From a virus (taxonomy: Duplodnaviria; Heunggongvirae; Uroviricota; Caudoviricetes), in the IMG/VR virus record IMGVR_UViG_2663763000_000006: 15,195 bases of DNA. One strand, written 5' to 3'. The notes beneath the pieces were generated by a model. That model did not search any database. It was not told where the DNA came from and worked only from the letters and a program-made list of their open reading frames with translations. The position numbers and the translations under genes were made by a program. Below, in pieces: positions 3,741-4,381 of this stretch; within the stretch, counting starts at the first letter, position 1, and each line of letters begins with the position of its first letter.

Positions 3741-4381
3741 CGTACAGCCTCCGCAATCCGGCCCAGCACCGTGTTATAAATCAGGCGCTCATCTGCCTGG
3801 CTGATACCCAACAGCTCACGTACCGGGTAATCGGTGAAAATGCCCGGCGCAACCTGATCGCGCTCACCGAACTGATGAACGCGTGCAATACGTGCGGCCA
3901 CGCCGCTGTAACCCACCGTCACACCGGAGGCATCTGCACGGGCTTTCAGGTAGCGGGCGGTGCGCAGTTTTACGAACATGGGGACGCGCTTTGTGCTGTC
4001 CTGGTTGATGCGCCGGGTGCGTATTTCCAGAAAACGGTCGATGTCATCCCGGTAAAACGTGCGGATATTGTTTTTATCCTCATCCCACCCGGTAATGGTT
4101 CGCCCGTATTTCCCCGTGTCGTGATGCCAGTTTTTCAGCGTGCGTGCTTCGTTATTCCAGATAAAGCGAATGCGCTCCTATATCCGGGTTACGCGGCGTC
4201 TGCGTGGTGTCCATTCGGTCCCGTCCGGCGCTTTTTGTGACCGGATACGTGCCTGCTGGGCGCGACGTAAATCCTGTGCCAGCTTTCTGGCGATGTTATT
4301 GATGGCCTGCTGATTCAGGCTGTCGCGGATAGCCTCAAAGGTTTCATCCACGCGGGTGAATGCCTTATCCATCGCTTTCAC
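3737..4381 (-). pseudogene. S: Tail completion / virion morphogenesis protein S homolog, interrupted by an in-frame TAG (4180..4178) and carrying about 57 extra codons
   Basis: N-terminal ORF 4178..4381 (MKAMDKAFTRVDETFEAIRDSLNQQAINNIARKLAQDLRRAQQARIRSQKAPDGTEWTPRRRR) and C-terminal segment ending 3737 (MFVKLRTARYLKARADASGVTVGYSGVAARIARVHQFGERDQVAPG...YPVRELLGISQADERLIY) look like the two halves of a Phage_tail_S family protein (P2 S / Mu G), based on recollection. Both are in the same frame, separated by a single TAG and an open segment with no family counterpart. Confidence 0.6.

What the first reader, a model, noticed from the sequence alone, without database searches (positions are those of the whole stretch)
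4011..4183. gpS carries an in-frame amber codon followed by a 171-nt extra segment flanked by a 6-bp direct repeat
The two halves of an S-family tail completion protein are in the same frame, separated by TAG (4180..4178) and about 57 stop-free codons (ERIRFIWNNEARTLKNWHHDTGKYGRTITGWDEDKNNIRTFYRDDIDRFLEIRTRR) that I do not recognise from P2 S or Mu G. ACCCGG occurs at 4189..4184 and 4018..4013, exactly 171 nt apart, so precise excision would restore ...RRRRVTR(R)INQDSTKRVPMFVKL.... This could be a recent in-frame insertion that truncates S, a lineage-specific insert plus nonsense mutation, a sequencing error, or, most speculatively, a recoding site: ATA-TAG at 4183..4178 with a matching in-frame ATA at 4024..4022 resembles the take-off and landing codons of T4 gene 60 bypassing, though the gap is three times longer.
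Basis: partly seen in the sequence, partly recalled or inferred. Interest (0 to 1): 0.65.

Follow-up and report, generated by a model that had tools for sequence, protein, structure and literature searches.

The report
Nonsense mutation in prophage tail gene
The stop codon is an ordinary single-base nonsense mutation (CAG to TAG) that has killed the tail completion gene of a decaying P88-like prophage in one E. coli lineage, and the "extra" 57 codons are a normal, conserved part of that gene in this phage group.

Summary

- **Homologues have a sense codon.** Phage P88 and about 1,000 complete E. coli genomes carry the same 636-nt gene, collinear and including the "extra" segment, with CAG (Gln65) where the window has TAG.
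- **The allele is already annotated.** Only one complete genome, OkiPb01713, matches the TAG-bearing 61-mer exactly. RefSeq marks its gene as a pseudogene, "internal stop".
- **It is real and inherited.** The window is contig LKDB01000066.1 of GCA_001440595.1. At least six other E. coli assemblies have the same allele, so it is not a sequencing error.
- **The 57-aa segment is an old insertion.** It sits inside the Phage_tail_S domain of 211-213-aa homologues from seven further genera of Enterobacterales (down to about 45% identity). Many residues, including Gln65, are nearly invariant. AlphaFold2 models it confidently as a small beta-barrel.
- **The 6-bp repeat is chance.** 57% of codon shuffles give such a repeat.
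- **The prophage is decaying.** The window also has a 5-nt frameshift in the large terminase gene.
- **No support for excision, recent insertion or bypassing.** The finding is ordinary.

The parts
3737..4372 (-). Tail completion / virion morphogenesis gene (gpS-like, long form, 211 codons), here a pseudogene interrupted by an amber codon. Some gene callers use the alternative GTG start at 4381.
   Evidence: Collinear with the 636-nt CDS of phage P88 (YP_009113077.1) and the E. coli gene for WP_000356366.1. Pfam PF05069 E = 3.1e-27 on the intact homologue. Annotated as pseudogene, 'internal stop', in OkiPb01713.
4178..4180 (-). Amber codon TAG replacing CAG (Gln65). A single C-to-T transition on the coding strand (A instead of G at plus-strand position 4180).
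   Evidence: DNA alignment with P88, WP5-S18-ESBL-09 and DA33135. It is the only difference from DA33135 in 645 nt. Gln is nearly invariant at this column in 90 homologues.
4181..4372 (-). N-terminal fragment that would be translated (64 aa from ATG, 67 aa from GTG): the two N-terminal helices of the S fold.
   Evidence: The exact 67-aa product is on record on at least 70 contigs.
4010..4186 (-). Lineage-specific insertion in the Phage_tail_S domain (about residues 63-121 of the 211-aa protein). Modelled as a five-stranded small beta-barrel.
3737..3979 (-). 80-aa ORF, the C-terminal part of S downstream of the stop. Gene callers call it as a separate gene.
4365..4832 (-). gpR-like tail protein gene immediately upstream. 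It overlaps the start of S.
   Evidence: PF06891 P2_Phage_GpR. Annotation of homologous loci.
3159..3740 (-). Baseplate assembly protein V gene immediately downstream. Its GTG start overlaps the S stop codon (GTGA).
11705..13451 (+). Large terminase gene carrying a 5-nt deletion at 13018 (one of two tandem GACGC copies lost), giving a frameshift and a 445-aa product. This is a second inactivating lesion in the same prophage.
   Evidence: Comparison with OkiPb01713. ORF list. The same truncated product occurs in other assemblies.

Best explanation
The window is part of a P88-like (Xuanwuvirus, P2-related) prophage of E. coli. Its tail completion gene, the counterpart of P2 S, normally encodes a 211-aa protein. 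That protein has the Phage_tail_S fold with a conserved domain of about 58 aa inserted after the second helix.

In one clonal E. coli lineage, a single C-to-T transition changed codon 65 from CAG (Gln) to TAG. Translation therefore ends after 64 residues, before the inserted barrel and the whole C-terminal half. Because P2 S and Mu G are needed for tail completion and infectivity, the prophage should be unable to make infectious particles. The early stop may also weaken expression of the overlapping downstream V gene (inferred).

The allele is a pseudogene that is inherited vertically with the chromosome. Further lesions have accumulated in sub-lineages: a terminase frameshift in the window and an 80-nt deletion in gene J in another isolate.

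**Shown:** the substitution, its rarity, its inheritance, the conservation of the segment, and the second lesion. **Inferred:** loss of function and polarity.
For: - **CAG in the homologues compared.** P88, WP5-S18-ESBL-09 and DA33135 read CAG. DA33135 differs from the window only at this base across 645 nt.
- **Rare allele.** Of 1,021 complete-genome records that match the 61-mer around the site, one is 100% identical (OkiPb01713). The other 1,020 fall in the 95-99% band, and the nine of them listed each differ from the 61-mer at one base.
- **Already annotated.** PGAP annotates the OkiPb01713 gene as pseudo, 'internal stop'.
- **Seen repeatedly.** The exact 67-aa truncated product is recorded on at least 70 contigs, in 111 blocks of the collection. 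These include GCA_000194215.2, GCA_005393035.1, GCA_911104175.1, GCA_001440725.1, GCA_054600155.1 and the window's own contig.
- **Clonal.** Four of these TAG-bearing loci and the window differ from one another by 0-5 SNPs over 6.2 kb; a fifth differs from the window only by an 80-nt deletion in gene J and one small gap.
- **Conserved long form.** 211-213-aa homologues occur in Salmonella, Edwardsiella, Klebsiella, Dickeya, Serratia, Citrobacter and Brenneria. Gln65 and about 19 residues of the insert are at least 90% conserved.
- **The long form works.** P88, which has the long form with CAG, is an inducible phage that lyses hosts (PMC5285337).
- **S is needed.** gpS of P2 and gpG of Mu are tail completion proteins whose mutants show head-tail junction defects or non-infectious particles (PMC11099176 Table 1; PMC11784142).
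- **No Gln suppressor.** glnV and glnX both have the anticodon CTG in OkiPb01713.
- **Second lesion.** The terminase gene of the same prophage is frameshifted.
Against: - No expression or induction data exist for this prophage, so loss of function is inferred from P2 and Mu genetics rather than shown for P88-type S.
- Basal UAG read-through in E. coli is low but not zero, and it could give traces of full-length protein.
- Amber suppressors other than glnV/glnX were not examined, and the rest of the window's own genome was not available.
- Apart from the one nonsynonymous change in the Okinawan copies (OkiPb01713 and L006), the downstream part of the gene is unchanged in the TAG lineage. This shows the mutation is recent, but it does not by itself prove relaxed selection.
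Confidence: 0.93

Rival explanations
1. Sequencing or assembly error: the true sequence has CAG and the gene is intact.
For: The window is a draft contig with a run of N (725-822) and a 5-nt indel in the terminase gene, which could suggest low assembly quality.
Against: The same TAG is present in a closed genome (OkiPb01713) and in at least five other independently deposited assemblies. The exact truncated product is on at least 70 contigs. The terminase indel is also shared by other assemblies and by a raw-read (Logan) assembly.
Confidence: 0.01
2. Recent in-frame insertion of a 171-nt mobile segment bounded by ACCCGG target duplications. Precise excision would restore a P2-like S of about 154 aa.
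For: There is a 6-bp direct repeat exactly 171 nt apart and in frame. The segment is absent from P2 S and from the 155-159-aa homologues.
Against: The segment is present in every P88-type homologue, down to about 45% protein identity and across seven further genera, with nearly invariant residues and a confident fold. It is therefore ancient and under selection. The repeat is at chance level, with 57% of shuffles giving one. At the protein level the Thr-Arg pairs it encodes are not both kept in the more distant homologues. The segment was not found elsewhere as a separate element: the only other DNA matches in the phage collection are S genes, apart from one unannotated 271-nt stretch in an Aeromonas phage record.
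Confidence: 0.01
3. Programmed recoding: translational bypassing from ATA (4183..4181) to ATA (4024..4022), as in T4 gene 60, or programmed UAG read-through, producing a functional S.
For: There is an ATA-TAG take-off-like arrangement, and a matching in-frame ATA lies 156 nt downstream. These are the only two in-frame ATA codons in the gene. A hairpin can form over the stop.
Against: The stop is a derived, rare allele: one exact match among 1,021 records. The same ATA codons and hairpin sequence occur in the CAG-bearing genes compared, which need no recoding. Bypassing would delete the conserved barrel. The hairpin is not more stable than shuffles (z = -1.1, 26 of 200 shuffles fold at least as well). 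The gap is three times the 50 nt of gene 60. The prophage is accumulating other lesions. No glnV/glnX suppressor is present in OkiPb01713.
Confidence: 0.02
4. The split gene is functional as two polypeptides (N-terminal helices plus a reinitiated C-terminal fragment), or the lineage keeps the allele because the truncated product is useful, for example by blocking lytic production.
For: The allele persists in many isolates, and an ATG-initiated 80-aa ORF covers the C-terminal part.
Against: Persistence is explained by clonal descent, with 0-5 SNPs over 6.2 kb. The 80-aa ORF lacks the conserved barrel and part of the core. The Okinawan copies (OkiPb01713 and L006) already carry a nonsynonymous change downstream, Ala to Thr. 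Other morphogenesis genes are breaking in the same lineage.
Confidence: 0.03

Closest known systems
Virion morphogenesis / tail completion protein of Escherichia phage P88 (YP_009113077.1; Xuanwuvirus, Peduoviridae) and E. coli prophage protein WP_000356366.1
   Same: Same gene, same length (211 codons) and same neighbours (R upstream, V-W-J downstream). DNA identity is 98.1% to P88 and 99.8% to the DA33135 gene that encodes WP_000356366.1. The 57-aa segment is included.
   Different: Codon 65 is TAG here and CAG there.
Pseudogene ACZ44J_RS11715 of E. coli OkiPb01713 (NZ_AP042682.1), annotated 'phage virion morphogenesis protein, internal stop'
   Same: Identical TAG allele in a prophage that is 99.9% identical over the window.
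   Different: OkiPb01713 has one further nonsynonymous change downstream (Ala to Thr) and an intact terminase gene. The window has the 5-nt terminase deletion.
Bacteriophage P2 gpS (150 aa) and Mu gpG (156 aa), tail completion proteins, Pfam PF05069 Phage_tail_S
   Same: Same Pfam family, the same position next to gpR, and the same expected role at the head-proximal end of the tail.
   Different: The P88-type protein carries a beta-barrel of about 58 aa inserted between profile positions 55 and 59. Identity to P2 S is only 37% over the shared parts.
HK97 gp10-family tail completion protein in the SaPI1 neck structure (PDB 9mu2 chain P)
   Different: No detectable sequence similarity (9% identity), and the 109-residue chain is too short to hold an extra barrel.
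T4 gene 60 translational bypassing
   Same: Only superficial: a stop codon directly after a codon that recurs in frame downstream.
   Different: The gap is 156 nt rather than 50 nt. The gap encodes conserved protein. The stop is a rare derived allele. No significant take-off hairpin is present.

Membership tests
Pfam PF05069 Phage_tail_S (P2 gpS / Mu gpG tail completion proteins) | Significant match to the family profile above the gathering score | tested here: met
   The intact homologue scores 95.7 bits against a cut-off of 24.3. The window's two fragments score 43.2 and 54.7 bits.
Pfam PF05069 Phage_tail_S (P2 gpS / Mu gpG tail completion proteins) | Gene position beside a gpR-like tail gene, within a P2-type tail/baseplate operon | tested here: met
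   The order R (PF06891), S, V, W, J, I, tail fibre is seen in the window and in related loci.
Pfam PF05069 Phage_tail_S (P2 gpS / Mu gpG tail completion proteins) | Uninterrupted reading frame giving a complete protein | tested here: not met
   TAG at codon 65. The locus is therefore a pseudogene of this family, not a functional member.
Xuanwuvirus (P88-like) long-form S protein | Length of 211-213 aa with the conserved insert (F-I-W ... L-K-N-W ... I-T-G-x-D ... R-x-F-Y-R-x-D-I) between the helical N-terminus and the M-F-x-K-L-R-T motif | tested here: met
   Alignments of 18 and 90 homologues. The window's frame encodes every one of these motifs downstream of the TAG.
Translational bypassing of the T4 gene 60 type | Matched take-off and landing codons, with a stop directly after the take-off codon | tested here: met
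   ATA-TAG at 4183..4178 and an in-frame ATA at 4024..4022. The same ATA codons exist in the CAG-bearing homologues compared.
Translational bypassing of the T4 gene 60 type | Stable take-off stem-loop that includes the stop codon | tested here: not met
   A hairpin is predicted, but at -16.9 kcal/mol it is not distinguishable from shuffles (z = -1.10, 26 of 200 shuffles fold as well).
Translational bypassing of the T4 gene 60 type | The skipped gap is non-coding and the arrangement is the conserved, functional state of the gene | tested here: not met
   The gap encodes nearly invariant residues of a folded domain. Only one of 1,021 complete-genome records matches the TAG-bearing 61-mer exactly.
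Translational bypassing of the T4 gene 60 type | A protein product that spans the junction | not testable with these tools
   This needs proteomics of an induced lysogen.
Mobile insertion with target-site duplication | Flanking direct repeat beyond chance, and empty sites in close relatives | tested here: not met
   The repeat is expected in 57% of shuffles. Of 1,052 E. coli records with a match to the gene, 1,047 cover at least 80% of it, and every full-length hit listed is collinear in a single piece; no close relative lacking the segment was seen.

The most novel reading that the evidence does not exclude
The only mildly new point is structural. P88-type phages carry a conserved small beta-barrel (Sm/SH3/WYL-like in the model) inserted into the tail completion protein. 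No Pfam model covers it, and no solved structure was found by sequence. It might contact the sheath, the neck or the DNA end at the head-tail junction. As for the amber allele, the most novel reading not strictly excluded is that near-cognate Gln insertion at UAG leaks enough to keep the prophage weakly viable.
Probability: 0.05. Interest if true: 0.3.

Novelty: already known. Interest (0 to 1): 0.08.

Why it matters
It matters little beyond correct annotation. The locus should be read as one pseudogene (phage virion morphogenesis protein, internal stop), not as two small genes or as a recoding site. The prophage in this E. coli lineage should be scored as defective. The case also shows that a segment "not recognised from P2 S or Mu G" can simply be a lineage-specific domain insertion. 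The inserted barrel in the tail completion protein could be worth a look for anyone solving a Xuanwuvirus neck structure.

Tried and rejected
- **Recent insertion or excision.** Rejected. The segment is collinear in 1,047 of 1,052 matching E. coli records (the rest are partial matches) and in distant genera. The repeat is at chance level.
- **Sequencing error.** Rejected on the evidence of independent assemblies.
- **Bypassing or read-through.** Rejected on allele rarity, conservation of the gap and an unremarkable RNA fold.
- **Suppression by supE.** I searched all complete genomes with a supE44-type glnV sequence. It occurs in 155 genomes, and the 40 listed are all, or nearly all, K-12 laboratory strains, which serves as a positive control. 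I then read the tRNA cluster of OkiPb01713 directly. Both CUG-type Gln tRNAs have the anticodon CTG. Other suppressor tRNAs were not checked.
- **Sequence search of the PDB with the intact protein.** It gave nothing meaningful (best E = 0.19, an NCAM domain).
- **Pfam scan of the insert alone.** No match at E up to 1.

Full report
**Observation**

Reading the minus strand of 3700-4500 and translating 4381..3737 confirms every sequence fact in the finding.

- A GTG/ATG-initiated frame runs through ...PRRRRVTRI and meets TAG at 4180..4178.
- It continues without another stop through ERIRFIWNNEARTLKNWHHDTGKYGRTITGWDEDKNNIRTFYRDDIDRFLEIRTRRINQDSTKRVP.
- It then enters the 80-aa ORF that starts with MFVKLRT at 3979 and ends at 3737.
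- ACCCGG lies at 4189..4184 and at 4018..4013, and both copies are in frame.
- ATA precedes the TAG, and a second in-frame ATA lies at 4024..4022.

Pfam Phage_tail_S matches the two halves but not the middle segment. On an intact homologue the match splits between profile positions 55 and 59. The segment is therefore truly extra relative to P2 S and Mu G. A direct alignment with P2 S (150 aa, taken from NC_001895) shows the same thing.

**What the homologues show**

- A megablast of the 645-nt gene against 5,426 complete E. coli genomes finds it full-length in 1,045 of them, at 96.6-99.8% identity in the hits listed. The features under the match are annotated "phage virion morphogenesis protein".
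- In the phage collection it is the S-equivalent gene of Escherichia phage P88 and other Xuanwuvirus members.
- In P88, in strain WP5-S18-ESBL-09 and in strain DA33135 the gene is annotated as one 636-nt CDS of 211 codons. The "extra" segment is present and collinear in all three.
- In all three, the codon aligned with the window's TAG is CAG, giving ...VTRIQERIRF....
- DA33135 differs from the window at this one base only across 645 nt.

**How common is the TAG, and is it real?**

A 61-nt query centred on the TAG matches 1,021 records. Only one is 100% identical, and the nine others listed each differ at one base. The exact match is E. coli OkiPb01713 (NZ_AP042682.1, bovine faeces, Okinawa). 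Its prophage is 99.9% identical to the whole window. PGAP already annotates the gene there as a pseudogene, "internal stop".

The window is not that assembly. It differs by four SNPs, a 5-nt indel and a run of N. An exact-product look-up identifies the window as contig LKDB01000066.1 (15,195 nt) of GCA_001440595.1.

The same look-up finds the same 67-aa truncated product in GCA_000194215.2 (E. coli 97.0246), GCA_005393035.1, GCA_911104175.1, GCA_001440725.1 and GCA_054600155.1. In all it is on record on at least 70 contigs. All of these loci read ATA-TAG-GAG. Four of them and the window differ from one another by 0-5 SNPs over 6.2 kb. The fifth, the GCA_911104175.1 copy, matches the window apart from an 80-nt deletion in gene J and one small gap.

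The TAG is therefore a real, clonally inherited allele and not a sequencing error. It is rare compared with the thousands of member sequences in the full-length clusters (P0001 has 3,849 members and P0002 has 708).

**The "extra segment"**

A protein search returns a large family of 211-213-aa proteins. They come from Escherichia, Salmonella, Edwardsiella, Klebsiella, Dickeya, Kluyvera, Serratia, Citrobacter and Brenneria, cover 94-100% of the query, and go down to about 45% identity. Shorter forms of 155-159 aa resemble P2 S.

Alignments show that the long forms share the segment. Nearly invariant residues lie inside it: F, W, R, L-x-N-W, G, G, T-G-x-D, R-x-F-Y, D-I-x-R and I. The Gln at the mutated codon is itself at least 90% conserved.

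An AlphaFold2 model built on the 90-sequence alignment has mean pLDDT 80.5. It places two N-terminal helices, then five beta strands that span the segment (10-residue block means 90-94 over most of it), then the C-terminal core.

The segment is thus an old, selected domain insertion in the tail completion protein of this phage group. P88, which has it, is an inducible phage that lyses hosts (PMC5285337).

**The direct repeat and the bypassing idea**

The gene contains 27 in-frame 6-mer repeat pairs 60-300 nt apart. A second pair (GCGCAT) also brackets the stop. 57% of codon-shuffled genes show at least one such pair next to the stop.

The repeat and both ATA codons are equally present in the CAG-bearing genes compared. 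At the protein level, the Thr-Arg pairs are not both kept in the distant homologues.

The predicted hairpin over the stop is ordinary, with z = -1.1. Bypassing from ATA to ATA would also remove the conserved barrel. Nothing here supports excision or recoding.

**Consequence and mechanism**

From established knowledge, gpS of P2 and gpG of Mu are tail completion proteins. Their mutants give defective head-tail joining, aberrant sheaths or non-infectious particles (Lengyel et al. 1974 and Grundy & Howe 1985, as summarised in PMC11099176 Table 1 and PMC11784142).

A stop at codon 65 leaves only the two N-terminal helices. I infer that the prophage cannot complete tails. The V start codon overlaps the S stop (GTGA at 3740..3737). 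Premature termination 147 codons upstream may therefore also reduce V translation (inference).

A glnV (supE) suppressor would restore the wild-type residue. In OkiPb01713, however, both CUG-type Gln tRNAs keep the anticodon CTG. A supE-type query found 155 genomes, and the 40 listed are all, or nearly all, K-12 laboratory strains.

The prophage is decaying further.

- The window's large terminase gene has lost one of two tandem GACGC units. The frame shifts after about residue 440 (445-aa product instead of 583). This lesion is shared by other assemblies.
- One isolate has an additional 80-nt deletion in gene J.
- The Okinawan copies (OkiPb01713 and L006) have a nonsynonymous change downstream of the stop.

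**Verdict**

RefSeq already annotates it as such in a sister genome. Interest is low.

Noticed in passing
window 13018 (within 11705..13451, + strand): The large terminase gene has a 5-nt deletion (GACGCGACGC reduced to GACGC). This frameshifts it to a 445-aa product plus a separate C-terminal ORF. The gene is intact in OkiPb01713, but the same truncated product is on record in 94 blocks of the public collection, including GCA_001440725.1, GCA_003015285.1 and SRR5470822.
   Followed up: yes
window 725..822: A run of 98 N lies inside the tail-fibre gene. At this place OkiPb01713 has 266 nt containing a tandem duplication of about 133 nt, so the N-run is probably an assembly gap or mask over a repeat.
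   Followed up: partly
window 4856..6736 (- strand): A 626-aa gene (DUF1737 weak, SASA sialate O-acetylesterase-like, DUF6645) sits between the lysis cassette and gpR. Phage P88 and strain WP5-S18-ESBL-09 lack it at this position, while DA33135 and the TAG lineage have it. It looks like a cargo ('moron') gene.
   Followed up: partly
L009 (GCA_911104175.1) 4574..5390: Another TAG-bearing copy of the prophage has an additional deletion of about 80 nt that splits the baseplate J gene into two ORFs. This is further decay in the same lineage.
   Followed up: partly
MT713136.1 (Aeromonas phage AP1) 242157..242427: A 254-kb Aeromonas phage record holds an unannotated 271-nt stretch that is 98.9% identical to this E. 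coli prophage S gene. It is probably contamination or a chimeric assembly.
   Followed up: no
[not shown]
   Followed up: partly
L017 (OkiPb01713 672000..702000) and L016: The host genome of the sister prophage carries many IS3-family insertions and chromosomal pseudogenes (djlC internal stop, hscC frameshift, ybhI frameshift). This suggests a lineage with generally elevated gene decay.
   Followed up: no
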